Positions 41,930 to 64,000 of a stretch of DNA of 64,000 nt are shown piece by piece. The notes beneath the pieces were generated by a model. The model did no database searches. It was not told where the DNA came from and saw nothing but the letters and a program-made list of their open reading frames with translations. Positions within the stretch are counted from its first letter, which is position 1. Every line of letters starts with the position of its first letter. This stretch comes from a virus (lineage: Duplodnaviria; Caudoviricetes): positions 32,001 through 96,000 of IMG/VR virus record IMGVR_UViG_3300031992_000038. One strand, written 5' to 3'. The position numbers and the translations under genes are program-made.

Positions 41930-42260
41930 CATTTTTTCCGGAAAAAAATTTTTTCAGAAGGCACATTGCGCAGAAAAAACAGACCGAAAAGGAAAACGGA
42001 GCGAAAACACCGGATGGGATACCGGACACGGGGATTTTTCCGGAAAATTTTTTTAGGCGGGCGAACGGACACGGGGATGGAGCGCGAGGGGGAAGAGCGG
42101 GGGAGGTAAACGGGGGATGGGAAGATGGGGAGGTAAAAATTTTTTCTGCGGGTCAGATGGCGAACCGTGCCCCCTACCCCGCCGACTGTTAAACTTTGTT
42201 AACGGAGTGGGGGGTTACGTAGGGGGGTCTACGGGGGGAGGGGTACATACCCACCCCCTA
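41930..42260. other. G-rich, palindrome-rich non-coding junction (candidate origin or genome end)
   Basis: TTTTTTCCGGAAAAAA, TTTTCCGGAAAA, multiple G4-5 runs, CCCCTAC...GTAGGGG. Confidence 0.45.
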
Positions 42261-42587
42261 TGCCCCCACCCCTATTTTCACATCATCAGGGTTGCCGTCG
42301 CAGTCGCACCATAGGTGGCAAAACTCGTGCCCCTTAATGGGTTCGTAATAGATCATTTCACCAAGTTCAAGGTAACTGTCCTCAAACACGTCAACGAGGA
42401 TAAACCCACCGACACTGAGCGGCACACGAAAGGTGTAAATCATTGTCACCCCTTGCAGTACACCGTTAATTTCATTGGGTTGGCGGTCAACGAGGGTCAC
42501 CTCGTACGTATTAAGTAGACTCTCAAGGGTTTGACCTTTGAGACTGTTGTAAGCGTCCTTAATTGCTTTTTTGAAGATGTTGTCCAT
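42258..42587 (-). CDS. cassette gene, hypothetical
   Basis: Downstream of inverted repeat element 42638-42830. Confidence 0.65.
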   Translation of the reverse strand: MDNIFKKAIKDAYNSLKGQTLESLLNTYEVTLVDRQPNEINGVLQGVTMIYTFRVPLSVGGFILVDVFEDSYLELGEMIYYEPIKGHEFCHLWCDCDGNPDDVKIGVGA

Positions 42588-42855
42588 AATCCTTATTTTA
42601 TATTGTTCAACTTCTGTTCCTTAATCACAACACTTAAAGGTAAGCATTTTATTTGAATTGACCAAATATAAAGTGTTAAAAATATGTTAAAAGTGTAAGT
42701 GTTAAAAATGTTAATTAACTTGCGTATGTGCGGAAAAAAACTTACCTTTCAGTGCCGATAGGGGGAGAGGCTTACCCTTGCGTGTGGGCAAAAAAAGTGG
42801 GCGCAACCATATCGGTGTGCGCCCTCTCTATCGGTGTGCGGTGCGGCGGTGCTTC

Positions 42856-43287
42856 TCAGTCTTCATTTTCCGCCTCTTCGTACTCCATATCGGCGACTAT
42901 GCTCTGAATTTCGTATTTGATACCGAATGTGCCGAATGCAGTGTAGTACCAATCTAAGCACCATTCTTGGAACTTTGCGAGGTCTTCCTCGCTTATTGTG
43001 GCATTGTCAATGCTCTCTATCACGTCATCGAACTTGCCAAAGGGCTCGACCTCGCTTCTTACAAAGTCCTTAATGTAGTCCCAATCCTCTCGGATATTCG
43101 CAAAATTGCCAATCATTCTTGTATTCTTGAGGTGGACGTACTTTCTCATATCGTCAACGATTGACTCCGCCCTAAAGTAGGCAAAATCCTCTGCAATGCT
43201 CTCCCACTGCTGATAGTCATCGGCAAGTGCGTCTTTGCACACATTGAGTACGCTCTCATAGACGTTGTCCTTATTCAAAAATTCCAT
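42856..43287 (-). CDS. cassette gene, acidic hypothetical
   Basis: 143-aa ORF behind element. Confidence 0.7.
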   Translation of the reverse strand: MEFLNKDNVYESVLNVCKDALADDYQQWESIAEDFAYFRAESIVDDMRKYVHLKNTRMIGNFANIREDWDYIKDFVRSEVEPFGKFDDVIESIDNATISEEDLAKFQEWCLDWYYTAFGTFGIKYEIQSIVADMEYEEAENED

Positions 43288-43569
43288 ATCCTTTTATTTA
43301 AGGGGTTAAACTTGTTGGGAGTGTCAATTCCCTTAACTTGACAACTGAAAGGTAAGTATAATATTTGGATTACGCAAGGACTTTAACACAATTAACACAT
43401 TGATTGATGAAATGTTAAAAACGTTAAAACACTTGTGTATGTGCTGAAAAATGCTTACCTTCAAGTGTCGCAAGACGGGGAGGCTTACCCTCCCGATAGT
43501 CGTTTGTGGGCGACAAAGACCACACCCACCCATAGGGGCGAGCGTGGTGCGGTGCGTTGTTCGGTGGTG

Positions 43570-43845
43570 TTATTTTACATCCACCTTGATATATTTGAAC
43601 TTGAACCCCTTTGGCAGTGTTGTCGTTCCCTCGGGGAGACGTCCGCCCATCAGTTGCGCAATGTAGGCGGTGTCACCCTTCTTTAGGTGCACCTCAATTC
43701 GGTTGCAGTCCACTCCGAGGACAGCGGCGGTGTCTTTGTGTCCGACCGCTGAGACAAGTCCGCTTGGAAGTTTGTCAACCTCGGTGAAAGTCACTTGTGC
43801 GGGGGTGTCAATCATTTGGAGCGAGAAAGCATTCAGAAGATACAT
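43570..43845 (-). CDS. acrIII-1: DUF1874 / AcrIII-1 family cA4 ring nuclease (anti-CRISPR)
   Basis: YLLNAFSLQM, SAVGHKDTA, NRIEVHLKKGD, RLPEG match the STIV B116/DUF1874 signature, including the catalytic GH. Confidence 0.85.
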   Translation of the reverse strand: MYLLNAFSLQMIDTPAQVTFTEVDKLPSGLVSAVGHKDTAAVLGVDCNRIEVHLKKGDTAYIAQLMGGRLPEGTTTLPKGFKFKYIKVDVK

Positions 43846-44112
43846 AATATACAATTTATAGATTAAACTTTTTGGGGTTGTCAATCCCTTAACTTGACAA
43901 ACGGAAGGTAAGTATAAAATCTGAATTGCACAAGCAAATTAACGTTTTTAACAGTTCTGTAGCAAGTATGTTAAAAGTGTTAAAGTTCTTGCAAGGTTTG
44001 GAAAAAATGCTTACCTTCAAGTGCCACCGCACGGGGAGGCTTACCTTTTCGTGTGGGCAAAAAAAGTGGGCGCAAACCCCTATCGGTGTGCGCCCCTATC
44101 GGTGGTCTATTG

Positions 44113-44349
44113 TTATCGGATGCGCATCACGTGCACACCATTGTAGTCAAAATCGGTGATTGTTTGACCTACTTGCAGAGCGTTGATACGCTTGAAATCG
44201 TCTTGGTCAAGACCCATGCGGTCTGCTTCCTCTTCTGTTGAGAATGATTGTACTACTGCTTCCTCGGTGCACGCCCAATCCAATCCGCCCTCGACTATTG
44301 CGAGGAATGTTTTTTGACCTTGCTTTGTCTTAATTCTCAGTTCTTCCAT
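44113..44349 (-). CDS. cassette gene, hypothetical
   Basis: 78-aa ORF behind promoter at ~44378-44410. Confidence 0.65.
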   Translation of the reverse strand: MEELRIKTKQGQKTFLAIVEGGLDWACTEEAVVQSFSTEEEADRMGLDQDDFKRINALQVGQTITDFDYNGVHVMRIR

Positions 44350-45048
44350 AATACATTATCTTTAATTGTTACACCCGTAAGGTAAGCAAAATAATCGGAA
44401 CTGACAAATTTTTCGGCAATTATTTTTACCACATTAAGATTTTTTAATAATTGTGTTAAAGTATTGTTAAAAGTGTGTATGGGTATTGCACAATCCAAAA
44501 AATTTACTTACCTTTCGGTACAATCATTAAGATAAGGTTTGTGAATTTTTGTGTGTATTATAGTAATACCGCACTTGTCCGAGAGGGATAGGTGCGGTAG
44601 TTTTTTGTTTCGGTGCGGTCTGCTGCGATGGGTAAGCCTTCCCGTCTTGCGACACTGAAAGGTAAGGAAAATTCCCCATATACGCAAGAGTTTTAACGTT
44701 TTTAACACTTCATCGTTTAATGTGTTAATTGTGTTAAAGTGCTTGCACAATCCAAATATTATGCTTACCTTTCGATACAATCGTTAAGATAAGGTTTGTG
44801 AACTTATATGTGTTCTTTCCGCACACGTCCGCGATGGATAGGTGCGGTTCTTTTTTTGTCTTGGTGCGGTTTGCGATGGGTAAGCCTCCCCGTCTTGCGA
44901 CACTTGAAGGTAAGGAAAATTCCCCATATACACAAGGCTTTTAACACTTTTAACATTTGCACTTTAACAATGTTAAAGATGTTAATTTGCTTGCATAATC
45001 CAAATAAAAGACTTACCTTTCGGTTGTAATCATTAAAGGAAAAAAGAT

Positions 45049-45309
45049 ATGAAAAAGAACATTTATCTTGTAGTGCATTCGTCATACCTTGACAGTCTCT
45101 ACACCGAGGTGACAATCCACACTGACTATGAGAAGGCAGTTCGCGCATTCGAGACCGACATCGAGGACATCAAAGAGTCTACCGATGGAGAAGAAGAGGA
45201 TGAGTACTATCGCCTTTGTGAATATCCCGATGGGCGGAAGAAGTTCAATTTTTTCGACCCATTCAGCAACCACGAATATCGGGTTTCGCTTGAAATCCGT
45301 GAATTGTGA
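45049..45309 (+). CDS. cassette gene, acidic hypothetical
   Basis: Behind element 44879. Confidence 0.7.
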   Translation: MKKNIYLVVHSSYLDSLYTEVTIHTDYEKAVRAFETDIEDIKESTDGEEEDEYYRLCEYPDGRKKFNFFDPFSNHEYRVSLEIREL

Positions 45310-45360: not shown

Positions 45361-45636
45361 ATGAAAGAGAAGTTTAATGCTGAAGAATATTACAACAATG
45401 AAATGTGCTTTTATAATGGGGGAGCATTTGTCAGCCTCGAGGAAGTACAACAAATCATTGACTATTGTATCAGTATCGGATACAATAAGGTATCTTCAGA
45501 CCAAGAATATTACCAAGTAAAACTGATGGGTAGCAATAAGGACGATATATTATATTTCCAAACAAAGCACGACCCATGGAATGATGATTGTCTGTCGTGG
45601 CATTGGGATTATGGCAGCAGAAGATGGAGCGAATAA
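45361..45636 (+). CDS. cassette gene, hypothetical
   Basis: ORF. Confidence 0.6.
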   Translation: MKEKFNAEEYYNNEMCFYNGGAFVSLEEVQQIIDYCISIGYNKVSSDQEYYQVKLMGSNKDDILYFQTKHDPWNDDCLSWHWDYGSRRWSE

Positions 45637-45967
45637 TGCGTCTTTATTGGGAACATACTACCGCACCCAACCGAGAGGTATATCCCGGTAGGGTGTGGCA
45701 GTACTCAAATGGGTACAATGGTGGGTGTCTTGTGGCATCCGCTTTTTTTTTTTGCGACCTTTCGCAAGGATAAGCCTCCCCTTGCTGCGCAATGGAAGGT
45801 AAGTGTTTTTTCTGACGTGTGCAAGGCTTTTAACGTTTTTAACACTTCATTCGCAAATATGTTAAAAGTGTTAATTTGCTTGCGTGTTTCAAATATTATG
45901 CTTACCTTTCGTTTGTCAAGTTAAGGGAATGACAACCCAAGAGTTTAACCATTTAAATAATAAGGAT

Positions 45968-46708
45968 ATGATTATTTCGGATACAAAGAACATTGCCAAC
46001 AAAGTGAAGGAACTCAAGCGTGATTGCCGTCCAAGTTACGGTCTTCGTTTCACCATCGTGGGCGAAGAGACCTTCAATGAGTTCGCCAAGCACTTTGGCA
46101 ACGTGAAAGAACCATACGTACATTATTCGATGCCCAAGGCCGTTGCTATGGCTGAGAAGTCCAAGGCGACCGAGGCAAAGATGGTTACCGCCTACCGCAT
46201 GGAGATGTACAAAGGCACAGATGGGGAGTGCAGTGCGGACGGCACAAAGTTTATGGCAATAGCATATAAGGGCGAGTATTATCAGATTATCCCTAACGGC
46301 AACGCAAGCAGCAGCCGTTTCAGCATCTTCCCCCTTGAAGACAACCGCGAGTATTATCAGAAGGGAGTAGACCGCAACGAGGGGCATCCCAACCTTATCG
46401 GTGCGCTCACCGACAAAAAGATGTCCGAGTGGGCGGAACACATCCGCAAGTATCAAGCGGAGTACGATGCGAAGGTAGAGAAGAATGCAGCAGAGACCAA
46501 CGCAGTAATATCTGCATTCAAGAGCGAGGCTGCCGCCGCCGATTGTGTTTCTGAGTTCGGCAAGAATTGTGGGACGATTGAGCGCAATGGCGTGCGCATC
46601 AAATACCAAGTGAGAGAGGACGGCCGTGTTTCGGTGGAAATGTGCTTGACCAAGTTCCCACGCACGACTGAAGAGAAATTGGCATACTTTGCCGCTCTGA
46701 CGAGATAA
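45968..46708 (+). CDS. cassette gene, paralog of 59345..60085
   Basis: PNLIGALTDKKMSEW vs PNNVGSMTAKKMTAW. Confidence 0.75.
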   Translation: MIISDTKNIANKVKELKRDCRPSYGLRFTIVGEETFNEFAKHFGNVKEPYVHYSMPKAVAMAEKSKATEAKMVTAYRMEMYKGTDGECSADGTKFMAIAYKGEYYQIIPNGNASSSRFSIFPLEDNREYYQKGVDRNEGHPNLIGALTDKKMSEWAEHIRKYQAEYDAKVEKNAAETNAVISAFKSEAAAADCVSEFGKNCGTIERNGVRIKYQVREDGRVSVEMCLTKFPRTTEEKLAYFAALTR

Positions 46709-47060
46709 ATCCTACCATATCCTTATATTCGGTGGACATCGCTTGTTCGGTGTCCGCCTATTTTGCGTTAGTTCGCTTTTGGAACAATTTTTAGAATTTT
46801 CCCTATGGGGATTTTTCTGAATGCCGCCAAATCAGTTCCGTTTTGGAACAATTTTAGCGAGGGTAAGCCTTCCCGTCTTGCGACATTTGAAGGTAAGCAT
46901 TTCCGGTGACATACGCAAGAGTTTTAACGTTTTTAACATTTCATCGTTTAACATGTTAATTGTGTTAAAGTCCTTGCACATTCCAAACATTATGCTTACC
47001 TTTCAGATGTCAAGTTAAGGGGGTGACCCCGCAAGTTAAACCATCTAATTTTATACGGAT

Positions 47061-47420
47061 ATGAGCGAGAAGATTGATGTAAGAACGAACAAGTGTGGAG
47101 AGAACACCACGCACATCTCTTTCAGTGTGGACTACAACAAAGGCGGCAGCAACGTATTTAGCGGTCGCAACGAGAGCAAAGGGGTTTTTGTGTACGTCAC
47201 CCTGTGCGAAATCGTTGACAAAGGCGACTATGTTTCACGTGCCTTTGAACCCTTCGACAAGCGCAATTTCAAGTTTTGCGTTATGCCGCTCGCACGCAAC
47301 TCGCAGAAGAAGGTTGACGCAGTTCGTGACGTTGTTCGTGCCAATGCGGAGAAGATTGCCGCACTTGTTGAGGAAGGCGACAAGCAACGTGTTATCGACT
47401 TTGTCAAGGGTCTAATTTGA
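47061..47420 (+). CDS. cassette gene, hypothetical
   Basis: YNKGGSNVFSG...KGVFV. Confidence 0.7.
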   Translation: MSEKIDVRTNKCGENTTHISFSVDYNKGGSNVFSGRNESKGVFVYVTLCEIVDKGDYVSRAFEPFDKRNFKFCVMPLARNSQKKVDAVRDVVRANAEKIAALVEEGDKQRVIDFVKGLI

Positions 47421-47693
47421 ACCACCAACCAACACCAACCGATAGGGGCGCACACCGATAGGGTTGCGCCCATTTCTTTTGCCCTTGCGCGAGGGTAAGC
47501 CTCCCCGTCTTGCGACACTTGAAGGTAAGTAAATTTTCCCATATACACAAGTCTTTTAACGTTTTTAACATTTGCACTTTAACAATGTTAAAGATGTTAA
47601 TTTACTTGTGTGTCTCAAATATTATGCTTACCTTTCAATCGTCAAGTTAAGGGGAGTGACACCCCACCGAGTTTAACCTATAATAGCAATGAT

Positions 47694-48083
47694 ATGAAGA
47701 TTTTTCATTTGGTTTTGCCCACCACGGGCGAGTTTACGAAGGGCAATGTTGACACAGTGACCGCAACCGAATTGGTTGACAAGTACGACCGATGGCTTGG
47801 GGACAAGGTTAGTGATGTGCTTGCTCTTGGGATTGGGCAAAGTCTCACTTATGATGGTGTGATTATCATCTGCGTGAGTGACAAAGTTGAAACCCACAAG
47901 AAGACCTACCGCTTTGATGTGACCTATACTGCAGGGGTTGTCGTTGAGGTAGAGGCGTGCAACATCAAGGAGGCGAAAGAACTCGCCAAAAAGAAAGCGG
48001 AGCGTAATTTGACACTGACACACGAAAACGAGACCACAACAGATGTGTGGGTCGTTGATGTGACTGAGAGAGAGTTTGATTAA
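47694..48083 (+). CDS. cassette gene, two-module protein
   Basis: N-terminal ~65 aa nearly identical to 48349. Confidence 0.7.
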   Translation: MKIFHLVLPTTGEFTKGNVDTVTATELVDKYDRWLGDKVSDVLALGIGQSLTYDGVIIICVSDKVETHKKTYRFDVTYTAGVVVEVEACNIKEAKELAKKKAERNLTLTHENETTTDVWVVDVTEREFD

Positions 48084-48348
48084 CCGCACACCCATAGACA
48101 GGGCGAGTGCCACACACGGCACCGCCCATTTCTTTTGCCCTTGCGTTGGGTAAGCCTCCCCGTCTTGCGACACTGAAAGGTAAGGAAAATTTCCCACATA
48201 CGCAAGAGTTTTAACGTTTTTAACATTTGTGCTTTAACAACGTTAAAGATGTTAATTTGCTTGTGTAATTCAAATAAATTACCTACCTTCCAATCGTCAA
48301 GTTAAGGGAATGACAAACCCACCGAGTTTAACCTATAATAGCAATAAG

Positions 48349-48798
48349 ATGAAAACATTTCATTTGGTTCTCCCGACCACGGGCAATTTTACGAAGGGCA
48401 ACATTGACACAGTGACCGAGAGCGAATTGGTTGATAAGTACGATCGATGGCTTGGGGACAAGGTTAGTGATGTGCTTGCCCTTGGGATTGGGCAAAGTCT
48501 AATCTACGATAGTGTGATTATCATCTGCGTGAGCGGAAAAGTCGGTTATAAATGGTCGTGCAAGTGCTCTGATGGTGGTTACACGGATGAGAGCGATAAG
48601 GTCTACAAGACCGAGACAGAGGCATACAACGCAATGCGCGATGCCGCACTGACCAAAATGAAGTGGAACACCGAGCGAGACGAGGAGGTGAGTGAGTTCG
48701 GTTGTGTGACCTATGAGGTCATCTTCAGACCGAACGAAATCATTCACAAGTCCTTCAGCGGCACATACACGTACCGCGTTGAACCTTCGACCTATTGA
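48349..48798 (+). CDS. cassette gene, two-module protein
   Basis: Same N-module as 47694, unrelated C-module. Confidence 0.7.
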   Translation: MKTFHLVLPTTGNFTKGNIDTVTESELVDKYDRWLGDKVSDVLALGIGQSLIYDSVIIICVSGKVGYKWSCKCSDGGYTDESDKVYKTETEAYNAMRDAALTKMKWNTERDEEVSEFGCVTYEVIFRPNEIIHKSFSGTYTYRVEPSTY

Positions 48799-49030
48799 CT
48801 TTCGTCAACACCGCAAGGTGGGCGAGTACCACACACGGCACCGCCCATTTCTTTTGCCCTTGCGCGAGGATAAGCTCCCCCTTGCTGCGCAATGGAAGGT
48901 AAGCATTTTTCTTGACGTGTGCAAGCCTTTTAACGTTTTTAACACTTCTGTAGCAAGTATGTTAAAAGTGTTAATTTGTTTGCGTGTCTCAGTTTTTTTG
49001 CCTACCTTCTGAATATAATCTTCAAGGTAT

Positions 49031-49624: not shown

Positions 49625-50162
49625 TGGGTTTTTAACTTGACAATGCGGGCGCACACCGAACAAGGGTTGCGCCCATTTTTTGCGACCTTGCGCGAGGGTA
49701 AGCCTTCCCGTCTTGCGACACTGAAAGGTAAGCAAAATTCTTCACATACACAAGAACTTTAACACTTTTAACACTCACACTTTTAACACATTTTTAACAT
49801 TAAAAATTTGGTCAATCCAAAAAGTTTTCTTACCTTACAGATGTTGAGAGAGGGATACAACCTCAAAGGGCAAGGATGAAACCTTGGAGTATATTTTCCA
49901 TCGCGCCCTATTGTGTAATCTTTAATGTTTCTTTTTTTGTAACATTTTTTTAACACTTAAAATTTGCACATGTCAGATTTTTTTCTTACCTTCAAGTGCC
50001 ACCGCACGGGGAGGCTTACCTTGCACAGACGGAAAAAGATTTACATCATTAACATTCTTTAACGGAAAATATTTGGCCGTCCCAAATATTATGCTTACCT
50101 TTCAATCGTCAAGTTAAGGGGGCGACACCCCCACAAGTTAAACCTATTAAAATAATAAGGAT

Positions 50163-50726: not shown

Positions 50727-50881
50727 CGACAAAGCATCGGGGGCGCACACCGCACCGGATGCGCCCCTACATTATACTAAAAGTACTCAAATGAGTACAA
50801 CATTAACAATTATTAACACGCAAGGTATTGCACATGTCAGAAATTTTGCTTACCTTTGCCACATAACAATTTCAAAAGATT

Positions 50882-51394: not shown

Positions 51395-51681
51395 CGATAA
51401 GAGGATTTTTGTGTGTTTTTCATGGCGCCGCGCCCGTCCGCGATGGATAGGTGCGGTTTTCTTTTGCCCTTGCGCAAGGGTAAGCCTCCCCCTTGCTGCG
51501 CAATGGAAGGTAAGCATTTCAGATGACATGTGCAAGGCTTTTAACACTTTTAACCTTTGTGCTTTAACAATGTTAAAGATGTTAATTTGCTTGCACAACC
51601 CAAAAAGTTTACTTACCTTTCGTTTGTCAAGTTAAGGGAATGACACCCCACTAAGTTCAACAATCTAAATCAAGGAAATAT

Positions 51682-51984: not shown

Positions 51985-52329
51985 AACGGCACATAACGGC
52001 ATCAGACGTTAGGATGGTATAACTAATCGCCTTGGCGGGAAAACGCTCTCACAAGCAAAATGTGGGGCATTTTCCCGCTATCTGCGTCCAAATATGCACA
52101 CGGATTTATTTTGCGCCCTTGCGCGATGGGTAAGCCTCTCCGTCTTGCGACACTTGAAGGTAAGGAATTTTCCTGACATGTGCAAGGCTTTTAACGTTTT
52201 TAACATTTCAACCATCGATATGTTAATTGTGTTAAAGTGCTTGCACAATCCAAACATTATGCTTACCTTTCAATCGTCAAGTTAAGGGGATGACAACCCC
52301 ATCAAGTTCAACCATCTAAAAGCAAGAAT

Positions 52330-53420: not shown

Positions 53421-53700
53421 GCACGATTTGACTATGGGATTGATGACCGCGCCCGTCCGTGATGGATAGGTGCGGTTCTTCTTTCACCGCTGACACAAAG
53501 GTAAGCCTCCCCTTGCTGCGCAATGGAAGGTAAGCATTTTTCTGCGCATGTGCAAGTCTTTTAACGTTTTTAACATTCAATATTTCAATATGTTAAAAGT
53601 GTTAATTTGCTTGGCCAATCCAAATATTATGCTTACCTTACGGATGTCAAGTTAAGGGGGCGACACCCCCGCAAGTTCAACCATCTAATTGTAACGAACA

Positions 53701-54598: not shown

Positions 54599-54848
54599 GA
54601 AAAGCAATTCTATCGTAGTTCCGTGTGCGCTCGCCCACAACAGGGTGGGCGCATACATTTTATCCGCACCGCCGGCGCGAGGGTAAGCCTCCCCGTCTTG
54701 CGACACTTGAAGGTAAGCATTTTCCTCTACGCGTGCAAGGCTTTTAACACTTTTAACACTTCTGTAGCGTATATGTTAAAAACGTTAATTTGCTTGTGTA
54801 ATTCAGATATTATGCTTACCTTTCGTATGTAATCATTAAGGATATGGC

Positions 54849-55019: not shown

Positions 55020-55032
55020 AAAGCAAATGATT

Positions 55033-55437: not shown

Positions 55438-55663
55438 TAACTTGACAATGCGGGCGGATGCCACACACGGCACCGCCCATTTCTTTTGCCCAAACGCAAG
55501 GGTAAGCCTTCCCGTCTTGCGACACTTGAAGGTAAGGAAAAATCCCCACATGCGCAAGTGTTTTAACGTTTTTAACATTTCATCAAACAATGTGTTAATT
55601 GTGTTAAAGTGCTTGTATAATTCAGATATTATGCTTACCTTTCGGATGTAATCATTAAAGATA

Positions 55664-56096: not shown

Positions 56097-56384
56097 ACCA
56101 CGCGACATAGGGATAAATCATGCGTAATTTATAGTTTTGGCCGCCGCACTTGTCCGAGAGGGATAGGTGCGGTTCTTCTTTCACCGCCGGCACGAGGGTA
56201 AGCCTCCCCGTCTTGCGACACTTGAAGGTAAGCATTTTCTGTGACATGCGCAAGTCTTTTAACGTTTTTAACACTTCTGTAGTGTATATGTTAAAGATGT
56301 TAATTTGCTTGCACAAACCGGAACTTTTACTTACCTTTCGTTCAGAAATCAAGGGATAATCCCAAGATATGAAAAGCGTCTGTC

Positions 56385-56667: not shown

Positions 56668-56865
56668 ATGAGAGTAACAAACATCCTATGGGACACTGAC
56701 GGGGAGAGCGTTGACCTCCCAACCGAGGTCGATATTATTGACAACATCGACGAGGACGAGGTGGCCGACTACCTGTCGGACGAGTACGGATATTTGGTGG
56801 AAAGTTTTTTTCTGCCGGAGAAAGAGACTGAGTTTTACGACAATCTGGACAACTGGATTGGATGA
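56668..56865 (+). CDS. small acidic phage protein
   Basis: NILWDTDG...ADYLSDEYGYLVESF. Confidence 0.7.
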   Translation: MRVTNILWDTDGESVDLPTEVDIIDNIDEDEVADYLSDEYGYLVESFFLPEKETEFYDNLDNWIG

Positions 56866-56898
56866 GAGATAATTGTTAAACCACAAAAAATCCCAACA

Positions 56899-57306: not shown

Positions 57307-57636
57307 CAATATCCTTTTTAACTTGACTGACGTGACAGAGCGGAACCGGCAATGGCCGGTCCGCCCTGTCGGGACAGGAGCGGAACCGAAACGAGCGGTC
57401 TGCCCTGTCCCACTTTTTTGTGCCCTTGCGCGATGGGTAAGCCTCTCCGTCTTGCGACACTTGAAGGTAAGGAATTTTCCTGACATGTGCAAGGCTTTTA
57501 ACGTTTTTAACATCTCTATGTTGAATATGTTAAAAGTGTTAATTTGCTTGGCCAATCCAAATAAATTACCTACCTTCCCATTGTCAAGTTAAGGGAGTGA
57601 CACCCCGCAAAGTTCAACCCTCTATATAGTCAAGTT

Positions 57637-57822
57637 ATGGAGAACGAAAAGAAAAAAGAATTTATCATAAATTTCCGTTGCTCGGCGGTCATCGAGGCCG
57701 AGAGCGGTCGTGAGGCGATGGAGATTTTTCAGAACATGGACCTCCGCCTGCCGGAGAACGTGGAGTTCACCGAATATATCAATGTCTTGGACACGAACAC
57801 CTTTGAGGAGGTTGAGGTATGA
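57637..57822 (+). CDS. cassette gene, hypothetical
   Basis: IEAES..EA motif. Confidence 0.6.
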   Translation: MENEKKKEFIINFRCSAVIEAESGREAMEIFQNMDLRLPENVEFTEYINVLDTNTFEEVEV

Positions 57823-58178
57823 ACTACGACTACACATTTGAACAGGAGTACAAGGACGACAAGCGCAAAGAGAGTTTTCTGTTCTTCTCGTTGGGTATCG
57901 TTCAGGTGCCCTACTACAATAACTCCTACGGCTACCGCACCTACCGGTTCCCACGAACATACAGGGGAGACCGAATGGTGATTGAGTTCACCGAATACCT
58001 CAGGGAGAAGGGTCGCGGGTATGAACTGAACTACATATTCTGTCCCGAGTGGGAGCAGCAGGTCGCAGACACAGGCCCTCTTCCACCCAAACCGGAAAAG
58101 CGCAGTCTGTTCTCACGGATAGCGGGCCTTTTCAAGCGAGAGAAGGAGGTCCCATTGCAGACCACACGGAAGATTTGA
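57819..58178 (+). CDS. hypothetical protein
   Basis: ATGA-coupled ORF. Confidence 0.6.
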   Translation: MNYDYTFEQEYKDDKRKESFLFFSLGIVQVPYYNNSYGYRTYRFPRTYRGDRMVIEFTEYLREKGRGYELNYIFCPEWEQQVADTGPLPPKPEKRSLFSRIAGLFKREKEVPLQTTRKI

Positions 58179-58433
58179 GCATACGGGCGGTTGACACATG
58201 TCACCGCCCATTTCATTCACCCTTTCGCAAGGGTAAGCCTCCCCGTGCGGTGGCACTTGAAGGTAAGGAATTTTCCTGACATGTGCAAGGCTTTTAACGT
58301 TTTTAACATTTGCACTTTAATAATGTTAAAAGTGTTAATTTGCTTGCATAGTTCAAATTTTATGCTTACCTTTCGTTTGTCAAGTTAAGGGAATTGACAC
58401 TCCCACAAAGTTCAACCATCTAAAATCAAGGAT

Positions 58434-59057
58434 ATGGAAACGAAGAAAATATTCAAGTTGGTGTCTGTGACCATTAAGGACGGCGCAACAAAGTCGAACT
58501 CTCAGGTCTTTGCAAGTCGGCAAGAAGCCGAGGAGCGAATTGACGTGGAGAAAGCCATAGTGAACCGCCGAGGAGACTACATTGTAACGGAAGACATGGC
58601 CATGTCACCCGACCGCGAGACCATCCACATTTGGAAAATCGTTGAAGAGGAGATTGAAATGGGGTATTACCCCGTGTCGTATGTGACCCGCGGTGTCGTG
58701 TTGGTCAAGGCAATTGACGAGTATGATGCCTACGACAAAGTGGGTCAATACCGCATCGCGCCGAACCTGCCCGACAACTTTGACGGCACCGTTATCGAAC
58801 TAACTGTAGAATATGACAGTAGTGACAAAAATGCGGCTGATGACGTCATAAAGGATTGGGGCACGTGCTGCGACCTTGACGAGTGCAATAGTGCCTATGA
58901 ACTCGGCGGCATCAAAACCACCATCCACGACTATGAGGATGACGACAGGAACCATAGTAAGTATTACACAGACTTCGATGAGTGGTGGACATCACTCACG
59001 CCAGAGAAGCGGCGCAACATCTTCGCCACCATCAACAAATGGAACTATATTGTATAG
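58434..59057 (+). CDS. cassette gene, hypothetical
   Basis: Behind element 58232. Confidence 0.7.
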   Translation: METKKIFKLVSVTIKDGATKSNSQVFASRQEAEERIDVEKAIVNRRGDYIVTEDMAMSPDRETIHIWKIVEEEIEMGYYPVSYVTRGVVLVKAIDEYDAYDKVGQYRIAPNLPDNFDGTVIELTVEYDSSDKNAADDVIKDWGTCCDLDECNSAYELGGIKTTIHDYEDDDRNHSKYYTDFDEWWTSLTPEKRRNIFATINKWNYIV

Positions 59058-59344
59058 TTCCATCAACAAATGGAAATAGCGACAACCGCATACAGGGCGA
59101 GTGCCACACACGGCACCGCCCGTTTCATTTGCCCACACACAAAGGTAAGCCTCCCCTTGCTGCGCAATGGAAGGTAAGCAAAATTCTCCACATGTGCAAG
59201 CCTTTTAACACTTTTAACACTTCATACATCAATATGTTAAAAAGGTTAATTTGCTTGCACAACCCAGATAAAAGGCTTACCTTTCAATCGTCAAGTTAAG
59301 GGGAGTGACACCCCCGCAAGTCCAACCATCTAAACGATGCAAGT

Positions 59345-60085
59345 ATGATACATTTCGCAAGCAAAACAGAATTCATCGAAATGACCCGTGCCGCCGAGGC
59401 CGAGGCGAGAACCTCCACATTTGCCGCCAAGAAGGGGTATGTGGATGACCTGAACGTCTTGTCTCAGGTTTTCGGTGAGACCACGAATCCGATACTCCCA
59501 TACTTTAGCAGTGAAATTGAGAAATTCATGGGGAAGGCCAAGGACGTTGAGTTCGTGAACTACTATGAGTTCACGATATATGCGGACATATTCAGAAATG
59601 ACGGGCATGCACGTCCCGGCACACTCAGTGCAAAAACCGCCATCAAGTGGAATGGTGCGTTGTACGACATATTCCCCGCCGACAATAACGGAAAGACGTT
59701 TGAGTTCGCCATCGCAGGCGATGAGCGAAAGTACCGCCGCTTGCCGGACGGGTACTACACCAACCTCGTCAAGCCCAACAATGTGGGTTCTATGACCGCC
59801 AAGAAGATGACCGCATGGGCGAGTTATCTGACTGACAAAGCAGGTGTCTATGACAAGACGATGAACGAGAGAGACCTTAAGGTGAAGCGGTTCGTGTGCC
59901 GCTTGCGCGAGCAGTTCGGCGACCTTCCATCAATCGGAGAGCGCAGCGGAAAGGTGGTGATGAATAACCTGAAATTGGAGTACCGCGCCGACACTGACGG
60001 GATTTTGTCCGCCACATTGGGCATCGTCAAAAATCCGTACATTGCGGAAGAATGCCTTGACACGTTCATTTCAATGGTCAAGTAG
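59345..60085 (+). CDS. cassette gene, paralog of 45968..46708
   Basis: Shared C-terminal motifs. Confidence 0.75.
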   Translation: MIHFASKTEFIEMTRAAEAEARTSTFAAKKGYVDDLNVLSQVFGETTNPILPYFSSEIEKFMGKAKDVEFVNYYEFTIYADIFRNDGHARPGTLSAKTAIKWNGALYDIFPADNNGKTFEFAIAGDERKYRRLPDGYYTNLVKPNNVGSMTAKKMTAWASYLTDKAGVYDKTMNERDLKVKRFVCRLREQFGDLPSIGERSGKVVMNNLKLEYRADTDGILSATLGIVKNPYIAEECLDTFISMVK

Positions 60086-60364
60086 AGACACACGCGGCGA
60101 GCAAAGCAGAGAACGGGCGGATTCCACACACACGGCACCGCCCATTTCTTTTGCCCAAACGCAAGGGTAAGCCTTCCCGTCTTGCGACACTGAAAGGTAA
60201 GCAAATTTCCCAACATACGCAAGGCTTTTAACACTTTTAACATTCAATATTTTAAAATGTTAAAAATGTTAATTTGCTTGGCCAATCCAAATAAATTACC
60301 TACCTTCCCATCGTCAAGTTAAGGGAATGACACCCCACAAGTTAAACCATCTAAATCTACGGAT

Positions 60365-61015: not shown

Positions 61016-61284
61016 AAAGGCATTGGGCAACATAGGACGGGCGGGGATTAAGTTTCCCGCCCGTTTCATTTTCTTGTCCGCAAGGGTAAGCCTCCCCGTC
61101 TTGCGACACTGAAAGGTAAGAAAAAATCCACACATGCGCAAGGCTTTTAACACTTTTAACATTTCACATTTCGATATGTTAAAAATGTTAATTTGCTTGG
61201 CCAATCCAAATAAAATGCTTACCTTTCAATCGTCAAGTTAAGGGAATGACACCCCATAAAGTTCAATCCATAAAATGAAATAAT

Positions 61285-61443
61285 ATGGCAGCAATGAAAT
61301 GGTGGAAGGTAGAGGTAAAGCGGTATGGCAAGCCCGTACAGGTGTACGAACTCCACACGCGCAGCACGAAGGGCGCGATTGTCCGCGAGGAATGCCTTAA
61401 GGCTCCGGACGTGGAGTATTACTATTTGACCAAGTTGGATTAA
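61285..61443 (+). CDS. 52-aa cassette gene (not in ORF track)
   Basis: MAAMKWWKVEVKRYG... directly behind an element leader. Confidence 0.55.
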   Translation: MAAMKWWKVEVKRYGKPVQVYELHTRSTKGAIVREECLKAPDVEYYYLTKLD

Positions 61444-61557: not shown

Positions 61558-62016
61558 ATGAACGTGTTTAAAATTCAGTACGAACAAATTATCGGTGGCG
61601 ACCTCATGGTACAGAAGGAGGAATTCTATGAGTGTGTCGAGGACGCGGCCGACCGAATGAAGGAACTTTCGGAATGCAAGTGGTTCAAGGACATCAAGTC
61701 CATTCCACAATCTGATTGCGAGATTTCCGCCAACAACAAAGGTCAGATTACTCTGATTGAGGTCTCAAACGGATGGTCCACGAACCGCTTCACCGCATAC
61801 ATGAGCGCGGAGCAGGTCACGCCAAAGAAGAAGCGTCAGTGCGTTGCACTCCACTTCACGGTCTTCATGGACGTTCCAAACGTAGTCGGCGAGACCGATG
61901 ATGAGGCTGAGCGGAACGCGATGGAAATGGTGAAAGATGACATCGATGCCATCCACGAGATTGCGAAAAAGCACGGCGGCGGATGCCTCCTCAAAGTCAC
62001 TGAATTCCACGACTGA
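61558..62016 (+). CDS. cassette gene, hypothetical
   Basis: Behind half element and conserved leader. Confidence 0.7.
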   Translation: MNVFKIQYEQIIGGDLMVQKEEFYECVEDAADRMKELSECKWFKDIKSIPQSDCEISANNKGQITLIEVSNGWSTNRFTAYMSAEQVTPKKKRQCVALHFTVFMDVPNVVGETDDEAERNAMEMVKDDIDAIHEIAKKHGGGCLLKVTEFHD

Positions 62017-62093
62017 GCAGTACTCAAATGAGTACAAATAAACAATAACAAACCACACGGGCGGGGCAACCCGCCCGATAAAAAGACTACGAT

Positions 62094-62375
62094 ATGACAC
62101 AGATTCTATTAATGACAAACGACAACACCAAGCAGACGCTTGCGGCCAATATCCCCAACGGCGAACTCGATTTCTTTGAGCGCCTGTCAACCCTCGGCGG
62201 CTTCCTGAGATTCCACATTTCGGTTTACGGGATCGACACCAACCTCACATACCACGCCGATTACGGCACATTCGTCACCAAGGGCGAGTGCATCGCATGG
62301 CTCAGCAAAAACGTGTTCGGCGGAACACTGACGACCAAATGTTTCAACGACCTCAAAAAGACACTGATGCGATGA
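62094..62375 (+). CDS. hypothetical protein
   Basis: ORF. Confidence 0.6.
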   Translation: MTQILLMTNDNTKQTLAANIPNGELDFFERLSTLGGFLRFHISVYGIDTNLTYHADYGTFVTKGECIAWLSKNVFGGTLTTKCFNDLKKTLMR

Positions 62376-62620
62376 GCAGGCACATACAATACCAATGCAA
62401 CTGCGCCGGCGTGAGCATCGAGGAATGGAACGGCCTGATGAAGGGGGCGAGACCCTGCTCATACAAAAACCTGTGCAGACTTATCAAGCGAGACGAGCCA
62501 GACATGTATGAGGACCTCATGTTGGACTACTACAACCCCTATGCAGACCAATGCAAGCAGACTAAGACACATTACATACTCGTCAGTTCAATGACGGAGT
62601 ATTTCTTCAAGAAGATATAA
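62372..62620 (+). CDS. hypothetical phage protein
   Basis: YYNPY...TKTHYILVSSMTEYFF. Confidence 0.65.
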   Translation: MSRHIQYQCNCAGVSIEEWNGLMKGARPCSYKNLCRLIKRDEPDMYEDLMLDYYNPYADQCKQTKTHYILVSSMTEYFFKKI

Positions 62621-62900
62621 TCGTTTGCGTTTTTAGATGGTGTGTGGCGGAATGGTAACGAATCCATCCGCCACGCTTTTTTCGTCCTCACCGCAAAGGT
62701 AAGCCTCCCCGTGCGGTGGCACTTGAAGGTAAGAAATTTCCGTGAAATGCGCAAGTTAATTAACACTTTTAACATTTCAACTTTTAACAAATTTTTAACA
62801 CAATATATTTGACCATTCCAAATAAAATGCTTACCTTTCAATCGTCAAGTTAATGGGAGTGACACCCCCGAAAGTTCAACCATCTAAAAGCAGAACAACA

Positions 62901-63866
62901 ATGAAAGCAAAACCAAAAGTCGGTGACATCATCTACTATGACGGAAACAAACTGAAGGCCACAAGCAAGAAGAAATGGAGCGCGTCGCTCGGCACACCCG
63001 TGGCGGTGGTGGTTATCCCTGCCTCCCACATGCCTGACGGAAAGTGCAGGGGAATGTCGCTGTGCAACATGTCGTACAAGACACCGCAGACGGGCACGCT
63101 CGGAACGGGCAACGACAACGCTGAGGCCAACGGCACGAATCTGATGTGGGGCGTTCACGGAACGGATGTCTCGGGTCTGACGAACTACGGCAACATCATG
63201 TCCACAAAAGGAATAACAATGCTCGATTTCGGTCTCTTTCCGAGCGACCTGTTCAAGGGCGTGATAACAATGCTCGATTTCGTGAAGAGACCGGGTGTCC
63301 TGTTCGATGGAATGGACACCCAAAACAATGAGGACGACACCGAGACCGCTTGGATGAAGACAAGAGAAGCACGCGCAATCTCCCCCTACGCCTCTGACGG
63401 CTCACAGAACCCAGCGTACATCACCGCGGGTCAGGCCCTCGCCGACATGGACGGCAAGGCGAACACAAAGGTTATTGCCAACCTCTCCGCAATCAAGGAC
63501 ACCTATTCGGGTGGAGCGTTCGAGAACATTGAGGAGAACTACCCCGCAGCGTTCGCTTGCACCCTTTTCAGCACACGCGGAACCTCTCAAGGTGATTGGT
63601 ACCTCCCAGCAATGGGTGAGTTGGGCTATCTGTACACGCGTATCAAGAGAATCAACGAGTCTCTCGCCGCACTCGGCACATCAGCCGTTCAGTTCGGCGA
63701 CCAAACGAAGGACCTCTCTTCTTTGGGCTCTTGGTGTTGGTCTTCGACAAAGTGCTATAGTTACGCATCATACGGACTAACCTACTATGGCGGTTTTTTC
63801 GGCGGCGGTAGGGAACTCAACGAAGATGACTACCGAGTGAGGGCATTCGCTGCATTTGACTTATAA
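62901..63866 (+). CDS. anchor-less paralog of the C-type-lectin-like fibre proteins
   Basis: Near-identical core to 18156..19250 but starts at KPKVGDIIYYDG; behind element 62698. Confidence 0.75.
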   Translation: MKAKPKVGDIIYYDGNKLKATSKKKWSASLGTPVAVVVIPASHMPDGKCRGMSLCNMSYKTPQTGTLGTGNDNAEANGTNLMWGVHGTDVSGLTNYGNIMSTKGITMLDFGLFPSDLFKGVITMLDFVKRPGVLFDGMDTQNNEDDTETAWMKTREARAISPYASDGSQNPAYITAGQALADMDGKANTKVIANLSAIKDTYSGGAFENIEENYPAAFACTLFSTRGTSQGDWYLPAMGELGYLYTRIKRINESLAALGTSAVQFGDQTKDLSSLGSWCWSSTKCYSYASYGLTYYGGFFGGGRELNEDDYRVRAFAAFDL

Positions 63867-64000
63867 TGTGTTCCGCGACCTATTGGGCGAGTGCCACACA
63901 CGGCACCGCCCATTTCATTCGCCCTTGCGCGTGGATAAGCCTCCCCGTCTTGCGACATTGGAAGGTAAGAATTTTTCCTGACATGCGCAAGTTAATTAAC

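What the first reader, a model, noticed from the sequence alone, without database searches (positions are those of the whole stretch)
42258..64000. Cassette array: about 35 small genes separated by 25 copies of a composite ~200-bp element
Seen: the unit is ORF(s), terminator, small hairpin, core GGTAAGCCTCCCC-hairpin-GAAGGTAAG, N, CAAG, TTAAC boxes, GTTAA boxes, TTG-N20-TACCTTTC, conserved leader, ATG. Units diverge from ~44.4 kb (leftward to 42.3 kb, rightward past the window end). Empty units, duplicated units, an inverted core and a captured structural paralog are all present, and one cargo is an anti-CRISPR. Known analogues: PeSL promoter-stem-loop cassettes of T4-type phages, host-takeover modules of SPO1/T5, and integron arrays; none that I know has this mirror-promoter plus hairpin design. 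Inference: an integron-like, recombination-shuffled platform of early anti-defence genes. This is the best candidate for an undescribed system in the window, and the unknown cargo genes are candidate new defence inhibitors.
Basis: partly seen in the sequence, partly recalled or inferred. Interest (0 to 1): 0.92.

Follow-up and report, generated by a model that had tools for sequence, protein, structure and literature searches.

The report
Phage early-gene cassette array, two-faced promoters
A large rumen phage keeps about 50 small, mostly unknown early genes in a 29-kb row of self-contained promoter-gene-terminator units, a Bacteroidota counterpart of the known T4 "PeSL" shuffling regions, whose unusual extra is a conserved second promoter facing backwards out of almost every unit.

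Summary

**What is there**
- The array runs from window 42.26 kb to about 71.3 kb, 7.3 kb past the window end.
- 71 of the genome's 82 TTG-N19-21-TACCTT sites lie in it, against about 3 expected by chance.
- Each unit has a terminator, then an outward "L" promoter arm with a 30-nt core (short hairpin plus GGGGAGGCTTACC), then phased TTAAC boxes.
- A gene-facing "R" promoter and a leader follow. The two -7 boxes lie 112 bp apart in 23 of 29 pairs.
- The promoter geometry is the canonical Bacteroidota -33/-7 type. The likely host is a rumen Muribaculaceae.

**What it is not**
- No integrase or resolvase was found, there is no attC-like site, and every cassette has its own promoter. It is not integron-like.

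**What it is**
- The closest known kind is the PeSL regions of T4-type phages. This scan has already noted many PeSL-like arrays in other phages.
- Recombination is supported. The elements are mosaics.
- An 88%-identical lineage differs by five gene-scale events; three of them have a breakpoint inside the module.
- One strain carries a converted R arm and a hybrid-element junction.
- Strains 98% identical are collinear.

**What is new**
- The outward promoter boxes are identical at 144 of 144 orthologous sites, while their spacers drift neutrally.
- The core hairpin shows a compensatory change.

**Cargo**
- One gene belongs to the AcrIII-1 family. 45 of 49 cargo genes have no Pfam family.

The parts
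42258..64000 (.). Cassette array, in-window part. The array continues to about window coordinate 71345, which is genome 74.2-103.3 kb.
   Evidence: 71 of 82 genome-wide TTG-N19-21-TACCTT sites lie here. Maps.
42258..44385 (-). Leftward arm with four cassettes. Genes: 42258-42587 (109 aa), 42856-43287 (143 aa), 43570-43845 (91 aa, AcrIII-1 family), 44113-44349 (78 aa).
   Evidence: R arms on the minus strand at 42637, 43349, 43905, 44379. Codon-usage scores 0.22-0.51.
42637..42778 (-). Paired element (R -7 box 42637-42644, L -7 box 42741-42748, 111 bp apart). Core hairpin of type CC-GATA-GG.
43349..43491 (-). Paired element, 112-bp spacing. Core hairpin GTC-GCAA-GAC.
43570..43845 (-). Cargo gene of the DUF1874 / STIV B116 / AcrIII-1 (viral ring nuclease) family.
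   Evidence: Pfam PF08960, E 1.4e-8. PDB sequence hits 2x4i, 2j85 and 6scf, with the NAFS and GH motifs aligned.
43905..44047 (-). Paired element, 112-bp spacing. Core hairpin GTGC-CACC-GCAC.
44379..44514 (.). Divergence point: two gene-facing R promoters back to back, with -7 box ends at 44379 (-) and 44514 (+).
44486..44958 (+). Two empty units (promoter, about 50 nt, terminator) that are tandem copies of each other, 82% alike.
   Evidence: Terminators at 44567-44599 and 44819-44863.
44629..44771 (+). Paired element, L/R spacing 112 bp.
44877..45019 (+). Paired element, 112 bp. The short leader serves genes 45049-45309 and 45361-45636.
45766..45908 (+). Paired element, 112 bp. Core TTGC-GCA-GCAA. 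Gene 45968-46708 (246 aa) is a distant paralog of 59345-60085.
46860..47002 (+). Paired element, 112 bp. Gene 47061-47420.
47467..47887 (+). Duplicated unit, copy 1 (element plus the first ~64 codons of gene 47694-48083). Copy 2 is 48123-48542 (gene 48349-48798). The C-terminal halves are unrelated.
   Evidence: 87% identity over 422 nt
48147..48289 (+). Paired element, 112 bp.
48866..49008 (+). Paired element, 112 bp. Gene 49031-49624.
49695..49836 (+). Paired element, 111 bp. Its R arm drives the sRNA-like unit.
49841..49914 (+). Non-coding cargo: a structured sRNA-like unit of about 75 nt, copy 1 of 3 in this genome.
   Evidence: Consensus of three hairpins with G-C/A-U and G-C/G-U changes. 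Model R1 finds 3 copies here and 6 in a distant relative. No Rfam match.
49947..50022 (+). Inverted L arm and core, pointing the same way as the genes. R-only promoter 50101 and gene 50163-50726 follow.
50821..50856 (+). R-only internal promoter with the canonical -7 box TACCTTTG. Gene 50882-51394.
51477..51619 (+). Paired element, 112 bp. Gene 51682-51984.
52127..52269 (+). Paired element, 112 bp. Gene 52330-53016. R-only promoter 53119 and gene 53142-53420 follow.
53497..53639 (+). Paired element, 112 bp. Genes 53701-54006 and 54020-54598. Its core hairpin shows a T-A to G-C compensatory change in lineage B. Its R arm is the donor of the conversion tract seen in L090.
54680..54822 (+). Paired element, 112 bp. 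Genes 54849-55019 and 55027-55437.
55499..55641 (+). Paired element, 112 bp. Genes 55664-55918 (absent in lineage B) and 55905-56096.
56195..56337 (+). Paired element, 112 bp. Gene 56385-56588. Then R-only promoter 56638 with genes 56668-56865 (absent in lineage B) and 56899-57306.
57434..57576 (+). Paired element, 112 bp. Genes 57637-57822 and 57819-58178.
58230..58372 (+). Paired element, 112 bp. Gene 58434-59057.
59141..59283 (+). Paired element, 112 bp. Gene 59345-60085.
60115..60364 (+). Worked example of one full module:
- terminator hairpin 60115-60143 with T-tract 60144-60152
- core 60164-60193
- L -7 box 60194-60201
- L -33 box 60220-60223
- TTAAC/GTTAA boxes 60224-60276
- R -33 box 60277-60280
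- R -7 box 60299-60306
- leader 60307-60364
- ATG at 60365
61083..61225 (+). Paired element, 112 bp. Gene 61285-61443, which lineage B replaces with an sRNA-like unit. Then R-only promoter 61493 and gene 61558-62016.
62696..62837 (+). Paired element, 111 bp.
62853..63866 (+). Cargo gene that is a paralog of three genes outside the array (window 18156-19250, 26374-27501, and genome 25271-26338). The array copy lacks their first ~47 residues.
   Evidence: 60% identity over 330 aa. phrog_4245.
63932..64000 (+). Start of the next paired element (L -7 box end at 63962; its R arm at 64085 lies outside the window, 123 bp away).

Best explanation
This is the hyperplastic early-gene region of a large phage with T4-type head genes. 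The phage probably infects rumen Bacteroidales, likely Muribaculaceae.

**How a cassette works.** Each small gene or mini-operon is an autonomous expression cassette. An intrinsic terminator ends the previous unit. A host-type Bacteroidota promoter follows: a TTTTAAC/GTTAA A-tract box, TTG at -33, a 20-nt spacer and TACCTT at -7. A conserved leader then starts the next gene.

**How the array changes.** Because about 40 copies of this roughly 200-bp module are alike, ordinary homologous recombination and gene conversion between them reshuffle the region. Illegitimate joins at gene borders add to this. Genes are duplicated, converted, deleted and swapped, as in the PeSL regions of T4-type phages. 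No dedicated integrase is involved.

**What is specific to this lineage.** Almost every module also carries a second, outward-facing promoter of the same design, 112 bp from the first. It is followed by a 30-nt core made of a short hairpin and GGGGAGGCTTACC.

**Shown versus inferred.** The outward arm is under purifying selection exactly at its -33 and -7 boxes, so I infer that it binds RNA polymerase. Its most likely role is to insulate or tune neighbouring cassettes: blocking read-through from the upstream unit, making a short antisense RNA, or aiding the forward promoter through divergent supercoiling. That last step is inference only. Shown are the anatomy, the promoter geometry, the selection on the boxes and the recombination footprints. 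Inferred are the early timing, promoter activity and the role of the outward arm.
For: **Anatomy and statistics**
- Searches give the map and counts.
- The spacer is 20 nt in 68 of 69 arms. L/R spacing is 112 bp in 23 pairs, 111 in 5 and 123 in 1.

**Phage type**
- Portal_T4, E 4.9e-78, and a large terminase. Prohead protease S77.

**Host-type promoter**
- The Bacteroidota consensus is -33 TTTG / -7 TAnnTTTG, with 4-5 nt to the start site (PMC6847099).
- An IS1595 transposase in the phage is 96% identical to one in a rumen Sodaliphilus MAG.
- That genome has 326 consensus promoter matches against 31 in the reversed control. Many of them use TACCTTTG.
- A distant relative's homologous array uses TTTTAAC-TTTG-N20-TACCTTTG and the same GTCAA...GTTAAGGGAATGACACCCC leader.

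**Early timing**
- The late-like motif TATTTAT[AT] occurs 17 times in the genome and never in the array.

**Genes are real and face the R arms**
- Codon scores. Identity between lineages is 92.5%, 94.5% and 80.2% at codon positions 1, 2 and 3.

**Outward arm is functional**
- Across 12 orthologous elements at 88% overall identity, the L boxes are identical at 144 of 144 sites. The L spacer is 76% identical (p = 6e-13). The core is 93% identical.
- The hairpin keeps pairing through a T-A to G-C double change, an A-to-G change that gives a wobble pair only on the L-sense strand, and one whole-type switch.

**Recombination**
- Among 28 elements, neighbouring-site incompatibility is 0.552 against 0.702 +/- 0.009 in permutations, and it rises with distance.
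- Lineage B differs by 5 gene-scale events over about 13 kb. Three have a breakpoint in the leader or the R -7 box.
- One 30-nt core unit fewer in a 98%-identical strain.
- In L090 the R arm after the 246-aa gene has been converted to the version found 6.7 kb upstream. A hybrid element there joins the 60.1-kb cassette to the 53.7-kb cassette.
- Only 3 of 49 cargo genes have homologs in the relative's array, and one of those lies on the opposite arm.
Against: - No transcript data could be obtained, so promoter activity, timing and start sites are unproven.
- The -7 boxes lack the near-invariant G at -5: only 2 of 39 R arms and none of the L arms have it. A phage factor or an altered specificity may therefore be needed.
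- The core hairpin straddles the predicted start site. The compensatory pair lies about 3 nt upstream of it, so a simple 5'-terminal RNA hairpin does not fit well.
- No terminator follows the outward promoter on its own strand, so the fate of its transcript is unclear.
- Concerted evolution among copies could add to the apparent conservation of the boxes.
- Strains 98% identical show no cassette change over about 16.6 kb.
- Two of the five lineage differences have breakpoints outside the module.
- The L090 junction could be an assembly walk through an exact repeat of about 62 nt.
- The genome record is only about 32% complete, so the absence of a recombinase is not proven.
Confidence: 0.7

Rival explanations
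1. Integron-like platform. A site-specific recombinase recognises the folded core or palindrome as an attC-like site and excises and inserts cassettes as circles.
For: The core conserves structure rather than sequence, with four hairpin types. The module is a large imperfect palindrome. The L090 junction has the form expected of a circle or a tandem duplication.
Against: No tyrosine or serine recombinase in the 116 kb held. Each cassette has its own promoter and terminator. The palindrome arms match only at the promoter boxes. Crossovers map to stretches of sequence identity in the R arm and leader, not to the core. The hairpins have only 3-4 bp.
Confidence: 0.05
2. The outward arm is not a productive promoter. 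It is a docking or operator site, for example one that parks RNA polymerase as a roadblock or sink, or binds a phage regulator that switches the early cassettes off together.
For: The L -7 boxes deviate from the host consensus at two near-invariant positions (TACCTTCA in 15 of 30). A second CTTACC box lies 29-30 nt downstream and is sometimes repeated 2-3 times. The hairpin lies at the start site. No terminator and no coding cargo lie downstream.
Against: Conservation falls exactly on the two promoter boxes, with a neutral spacer of fixed 20-nt length. That is the signature of polymerase recognition. Upstream boxes mirror those of the working R arms.
Confidence: 0.15
3. The outward arms make about 30 copies of a short trans-acting RNA beginning near the hairpin and GGGGAGGCUUACC, which acts on a host or defence target.
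For: The core is 93% conserved between lineages against about 78% for neutral sites. G-U-compatible changes occur only on the L-sense strand. The high copy number would give a high dose.
Against: There is no defined 3' end. Sequence beyond the 30-nt core evolves neutrally at 79%. There is no Rfam match. The arm is absent from the relative's array. The stem's 5' half lies at or before the predicted start.
Confidence: 0.08
4. The roughly 200-bp module is a selfish palindromic repeat (MITE-like) that has spread through the region. Its resemblance to a promoter is incidental.
For: Inverted arms, many copies, mosaic structure.
Against: No target-site duplications. The position relative to stop codons and ATGs is fixed. 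The geometry is that of a promoter. Single R-type promoters of the same design serve genes outside the array and in a distant relative. The boxes are conserved in orthologs.
Confidence: 0.02

Closest known systems
PeSL (promoter-early stem-loop) cassettes in the hyperplastic regions of T4-type phages RB49/phi1, PST and nt-1 (PMC2839356, PMC4122927)
   Same: - Tens of copies of a composite terminator plus strong host-type early promoter, with an AT-rich upstream region.
- Placed in front of small ORFan genes in a plastic region of a phage with T4-type head genes.
- Relatives differ by gene gain, loss and replacement at these motifs through homologous recombination.
   Different: - The host promoter type is Bacteroidota -33/-7, not sigma-70.
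- The module is longer, about 200 bp.
- It carries a second outward promoter at a fixed 112 bp, plus a 30-nt core with a covarying hairpin and a conserved 55-nt leader. None of these is described for PeSLs.
- Mini-circles are not shown here.
- Some breakpoints lie outside the module.
Integron gene-cassette arrays (intI, attI/attC, Pc promoter)
   Same: A row of small, mostly co-oriented accessory genes separated by repeated elements whose short hairpin conserves structure more than sequence. Cargo turnover is high.
   Different: No integrase was found and there is no attC architecture. Each cassette has its own promoter and terminator. Exchanges map to regions of sequence identity.
Host-takeover / pre-early gene modules of SPO1 and T5, and similar early cassette arrays noted in this scan in other phages
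   Same: A dense series of strong early promoters and terminators around small genes of unknown or anti-host function, at one place in the genome.
   Different: Those modules are not built on one repeated 200-bp two-faced module. This comparison rests on my own knowledge and on unchecked scan notes.
The homologous array in a distant relative, IMG/VR contig of 124.9 kb (locus L093; portal 63% identical)
   Same: The same TTTTAAC box, TTTG, N20, TACCTTT promoter, the same GTCAA...GTTAAGGGAATGACACCCC leader, the same multicopy sRNA-like unit, the same GTACTCAAATGAGTA palindrome, divergent arms and a DUF932 gene.
   Different: It uses the canonical G at -5, has no systematic outward arm or 30-nt core, and shares only 3 of 49 cargo genes.

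Membership tests
PeSL-type regulatory cassette region | Lies in a phage with T4-type core genes | tested here: met
   Portal_T4 E 4.9e-78 and a T4-type large terminase N-domain. Prohead protease S77. Formal taxonomy was not established.
PeSL-type regulatory cassette region | Repeated motif containing a host-consensus early promoter with an AT-rich upstream region | tested here: inconclusive
   The geometry TTG-N20-TACCTT matches the Bacteroidota consensus, and phased TTTTAAC boxes lie upstream. G at -5 is missing and activity has not been measured.
PeSL-type regulatory cassette region | Stem-loop acting as terminator or attenuator next to the promoter | tested here: met
   GC-rich hairpin plus T-tract upstream of the core in the paired elements, in five recurring terminator types. 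This is sequence-level evidence only.
PeSL-type regulatory cassette region | Concentrated in a plastic region in front of ORFans | tested here: met
   71 of 82 sites lie in 25% of the genome. 45 of 49 cargo genes have no Pfam family.
PeSL-type regulatory cassette region | Differences between related phages have breakpoints in the motif | tested here: inconclusive
   Three of 5 gene-scale events, one R-arm conversion and one hybrid-element junction lie in the module. Two of the 5 do not. Strains 98% identical are collinear.
PeSL-type regulatory cassette region | Mini-circles formed by exchange between nearby motifs | not testable with these tools
The L090 junction is compatible with a circle but is ambiguous.
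Integron | IntI tyrosine recombinase next to the array | tested here: not met
   PF00589 and PF00239 give no match in the 115,873 bp held. The record is about 32% complete.
Integron | Promoterless cassettes read from one Pc promoter, each ending in an attC site | tested here: not met
   39 gene-facing promoters and terminators at most cassette ends. No attC-like R/L box structure is present.
Bacteroidota sigma-A (sigma-ABfr) promoter | -33 TTTG and -7 TAnnTTTG about 20 nt apart | tested here: inconclusive
   TTG, the 20-nt spacer, TA at -12/-11 and TT at -8/-7 are all met in 68 of 69 arms. G at -5 is present in only 2 of 39 R arms and 0 of 30 L arms. T at -6 is replaced by C in 23 of 30 L arms (consensus).
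AcrIII-1 / DUF1874 viral ring nuclease | Sequence membership in PF08960, with the conserved His-containing motif | tested here: met
   PF08960 E 1.4e-8. Aligns to 2x4i, 2j85 and 6scf, including NAFS..M and GH..T. Enzyme activity and anti-CRISPR effect are not testable here.

The most novel reading that the evidence does not exclude
The outward promoter with its 30-nt core is a new kind of cassette insulator or regulator. A polymerase-binding site at a fixed 112 bp from each early promoter has an initial region (hairpin plus a second CTTACC box) that holds or pauses polymerase, or yields a multicopy short RNA. The result is that about 30 neighbouring early genes are controlled and insulated together. 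It arose in this lineage only. Alongside it, the array carries a conserved, multicopy, structured small RNA family that has not been described.
Probability: 0.3. Interest if true: 0.75.

Novelty: new variant of a known kind. Interest (0 to 1): 0.58.

Why it matters
- It extends the PeSL idea to large Bacteroidota phages of the rumen, where almost nothing is known about transcription. In PeSL regions, repeated promoter-terminator modules both express accessory genes and act as seams for shuffling them.
- It supplies a clean set of about 70 aligned natural promoters with a neutral spacer and selected boxes.
- It supplies about 45 early ORFans next to an AcrIII-1-family gene. These are reasonable candidates for counter-defence screens.
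- The conserved outward promoter and core give a concrete, testable case of divergent promoter pairs used systematically in a phage.
- The multicopy small RNA shared with a distant relative may be a new phage RNA family.

Tried and rejected
**Searches that found nothing useful**
- Exact-pattern scans of IMG/VR for the core and the leader found nothing.
- The metagenome scan found only one 1.2-kb near-identical contig.
- Phage GenBank megablast found nothing.
- Relatives with 60-66% portal identity: five records lack the motif, and 120 kb of one relative has no highly repeated word.
- Rfam found nothing at the gathering threshold or at E <= 1 over the array. No tRNA genes were found.
- Sigma-70 region 2 (PF04542), integrase and resolvase families are all absent from the held genome.
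- Four exact-protein look-ups found nothing.
- The flanking 460-aa protein has no homolog besides itself.
- Model R1 gave no match in the candidate host genome, although only 150 of 970 candidates were scored.

**Steps that could not be run**
The planned read-level test for junctions and the RNA test for start sites were therefore not run.

**Readings checked and dropped**
- The leader as a structured RNA: only an invariant GGG/CCC stem and no covariation. Its conservation is in the primary sequence.
- An apparent 100-nt insertion in L048 is a scaffold gap of N with overlap.
- Long antisense ORFs, for example 56686-57555 (-), are not coding by codon usage.
- The duplicated cassette is not a clean cassette duplication, because similarity ends inside the ORF.
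- A link between the -7 variant and the G-run variant of the core, which would extend the hairpin, was looked at by eye and is weak.

Full report
**Setting.** The window is bases 32001-96000 of a single 115,873-bp virus record that CheckV rates as about 32% complete.
- The record encodes a T4-type portal (Pfam Portal_T4, E 4.9e-78), a large terminase and a prohead protease S77.
- It also encodes several methyltransferases and a Cas12a with an 11-repeat CRISPR array.
- An IS1595 transposase in the phage is 96% identical to one in a rumen Sodaliphilus (Muribaculaceae) MAG. All the closer hits are rumen Bacteroidales.
- The portal's nearest relatives in IMG/VR are 60-74% identical, have 28-44% G+C, and come from contigs of up to 355 kb.

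- Repeat families of 18-21 copies fill the region.
- The motif TTG-N19-21-TACCTT occurs 82 times in the genome. 71 of those lie between genome 74.2 and 103.2 kb, against a mean of 3 in shuffles.
- The array therefore spans window 42258 to about 71345. The window holds exactly 25 outward cores and 36 genes. The whole array holds 30-32 outward arms, 39 gene-facing arms and about 49 genes.
- Codon usage puts all real genes on the strand faced by the R arms. Long antisense ORFs score at or below 0.1 and are spurious.

**Anatomy of one module** (worked example 60115-60364). The order is:
1. Terminator hairpin and T-tract.
2. A variable short hairpin.
3. The core, which on the outward strand reads CTTACCTT, 5 nt, a 3-4-bp hairpin, then GGGGAGGCTTACC.
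4. The outward -33 box.
5. Two TTTTAAC boxes, a 12-14-nt centre and two GTTAA boxes.
6. The gene-facing -33 box, a 20-nt spacer and CTTACCTTTC.
7. A leader, then the ATG.

Further points on the anatomy:
- The spacer is 20 nt in 68 of 69 arms. The two -7 boxes are 112 bp apart in 23 pairs, 111 in 5 and 123 in 1.
- Leaders come in three forms. The long form (GTCAAGTTAAGGG..TGACA..CCC..AAGTTnAACCATCTAAA) has 21 copies. There is also a short form (GTAATCATTAAGG) and an sRNA-like unit.
- R-only half-modules serve as internal promoters.

**The promoters are of host type.**
- The Bacteroidota consensus is -33 TTTG and -7 TAnnTTTG, with 4-5 nt to the start site (PMC6847099). The phage boxes have that geometry.
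- The candidate host genome has 326 consensus matches against 31 for the reversed control. TACCTTTG is a frequent -7 version there.
- A distant relative (L093) has a homologous array. Its promoters read TTTTAAC, TTTG, N20, TACCTTTG, followed by GTCAA. One of them carries the same long leader.
- Single promoters of this design also serve genes outside the array.
- A T4-late-like word, TATTTAT[AT], occurs 17 times in the genome and never in the array.
- I infer that the array is read early by host RNA polymerase.
- One caveat: the phage boxes almost never have the G at -5, which is near-invariant in the host.

**The outward arm is selected.** Contigs of a second lineage (L085, L086, L087; about 88% identical) gave 12 orthologous modules.

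| Region | Identity between lineages |
|---|---|
| Outward -33 and -7 boxes | 144 of 144 sites |
| Outward spacer | 76% |
| Gene-facing boxes | 141 of 144 sites |
| Core | 93% |
| Codon position 3 (neutral proxy) | 80% |

- The outward boxes differ from their spacer with p = 6e-13. The core differs from codon position 3 with p = 5e-9.
- Conserved boxes around a freely drifting spacer of fixed length are what a promoter looks like.
- The core hairpin exists in four sequence types: GTC-GCAA-GAC, GTGC-CACC-GCAC, TTGC-GCA-GCAA and CC-GATA-GG.
- Between lineages the hairpin shows one T-A to G-C double change, one A-to-G change that gives a wobble pair only on the outward strand, and one switch of type that keeps a hairpin.
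- The stem begins about 3 nt before the predicted start, so it may act in DNA or at a shifted start. I could not settle this.
- The outward arm has no coding cargo and no terminator on its own strand.
- It is absent from the relative's array, so it is an innovation of this lineage.

**Recombination.**
- Terminator type, hairpin type, centre type and leader type occur in nearly all combinations.
- A homoplasy test on 184 informative columns gives neighbouring-site incompatibility of 0.552 against 0.702 +/- 0.009 in permutations. It rises from 0.50 within 10 nt to 0.73-0.76 beyond 60 nt.
- Contigs 98% identical from other samples are collinear over about 16.6 kb, apart from one 30-nt core unit.
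- Lineage B differs over about 13 kb by five gene-scale events:

| Event | Breakpoints |
|---|---|
| 84-aa gene (55662-55901) present only here | left edge in the short leader |
| 65-aa gene (56659-56870) present only here | left edge in the short leader |
| 52-aa gene with its leader replaced by an sRNA-like unit | between an R -7 box and the next R arm's boxes |
| 90-aa gene extra in lineage B | stop codon-terminator junction |
| 59-aa gene present only here | stop codon-terminator junction |

- In contig L090 (96% identical), the R arm after the 246-aa gene is identical to the R arm of the module 6.7 kb upstream. That is a conversion tract.
- The same contig runs from the 60.1-kb cassette through a hybrid module into the 53.7-kb cassette, then on through a second copy that is 99.8% identical.
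- That is the form expected of unequal exchange, giving a tandem duplication or a circle. An assembly walk through the exact repeat of about 62 nt cannot be excluded.
- Only 3 of 49 cargo genes have homologs in the relative's array, and DUF932 sits on the opposite arm there.

**Why it is not an integron.** No tyrosine or serine recombinase was found in the DNA held. There is no attC-like architecture. Each cassette has a promoter and a terminator. Crossovers lie in stretches of identity.

**Cargo.**
- Pfam names four of the 49 cargo genes: DUF932 (also TIGR03299), DUF2958, STIV_B116-like/DUF1874, and a weak HetE-N hit.
- The DUF1874 gene aligns with SIRV1 and STIV proteins and with the solved AcrIII-1, including the His motif.
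- 'Anti-defence platform' is therefore plausible but rests on one gene.

**Comparison with what is known.**
- The PeSL papers describe about 50 copies per genome of a strong early promoter with an AT-rich upstream region and a stem-loop. These lie in hyperplastic regions before ORFans and mediate indels, replacements and mini-circles (PMC2839356; PMC4122927).
- The present array matches that description at sequence level and partly in its comparative behaviour.
- This scan's earlier notes list many PeSL-like arrays in other phages. They include a ~319-kb Bacteroidota phage and one giant phage with a backward-facing promoter.
- The class is therefore not new. What is new is the systematic, selected, fixed-distance outward promoter with its core.

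**Verdict.** This is a new variant of a known kind, of moderate interest.

Noticed in passing
window 49841-49914; also L001 4740-4813 and 7889-7966 (window coordinates 67740-67813 and 70889-70966); L093 4209-4278 and five weaker sites: A structured sRNA-like unit of about 75 nt (three hairpins, with compensatory and wobble changes), driven directly by R-type promoters. There are three copies here and a fourth in lineage B. Six matches cluster in the homologous array of a relative with only 63% portal identity (best E 5e-9). It has no Rfam family and may be a new phage RNA family.
   Followed up: partly
window 45701-45715, 50783-50797, 53021-53035, 62020-62034; L093 four copies: The palindrome GTACTCAAATG(A/G)GTA lies just after stop codons where no terminator or L arm follows. 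There are 6 matches against 0.24 expected by chance, and it is conserved in the distant relative's array. It may be a processing or attenuation site.
   Followed up: partly
window 12204-15824 and 15896-16573: A phage-encoded Cas12a (RuvC_1, NUC and REC1 domains), followed by a CRISPR array of 11 repeats of 36 nt.
   Followed up: partly
window 18156-19250 (-), 26374-27501 (-), 62853-63866 (+); genome 25271-26338: A four-member paralog family (59-67% identity, phrog_4245). The array copy lacks the first ~47 residues, an N-terminal segment the other three share with several unrelated proteins of this genome.
   Followed up: partly
genome 11312-12304 (L002, minus strand): An IS1595-family transposase, 96% identical to one in a rumen Sodaliphilus MAG. 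This is the best host lead for the phage.
   Followed up: yes
window 47694-48083 and 48349-48798: Two neighbouring cargo proteins share an N-terminal domain of 64 residues, about 85% identical, joined to unrelated C-terminal halves. This is domain swapping inside cassettes.
   Followed up: partly
L090 2700-3010 and 9326-9640: A metagenome contig carries two 2.9-kb copies (99.8% identical) of the 57.4-60.3 kb segment. A hybrid module joins the 60.1-kb cassette to the 53.7-kb cassette. This is either a tandem duplication or circle, or an assembly walk.
   Followed up: partly
genome-wide, e.g. window 19283 (-), 24855 (+), 36437-36451 (-): The word TATTTAT[AT], like the T4 late promoter, lies upstream of several non-array genes. 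It occurs 17 times in the genome and never in the array.
   Followed up: partly
window 66176-66246 (outside the window; L001 3176-3246): Three tandem copies of the 30-nt core unit here, against two in a 98%-identical strain. The core's copy number varies.
   Followed up: yes
window 24001-26000: An unusually high AT skew (0.40) in a 55% G+C stretch that covers the end of the portal gene and the next gene.
   Followed up: no
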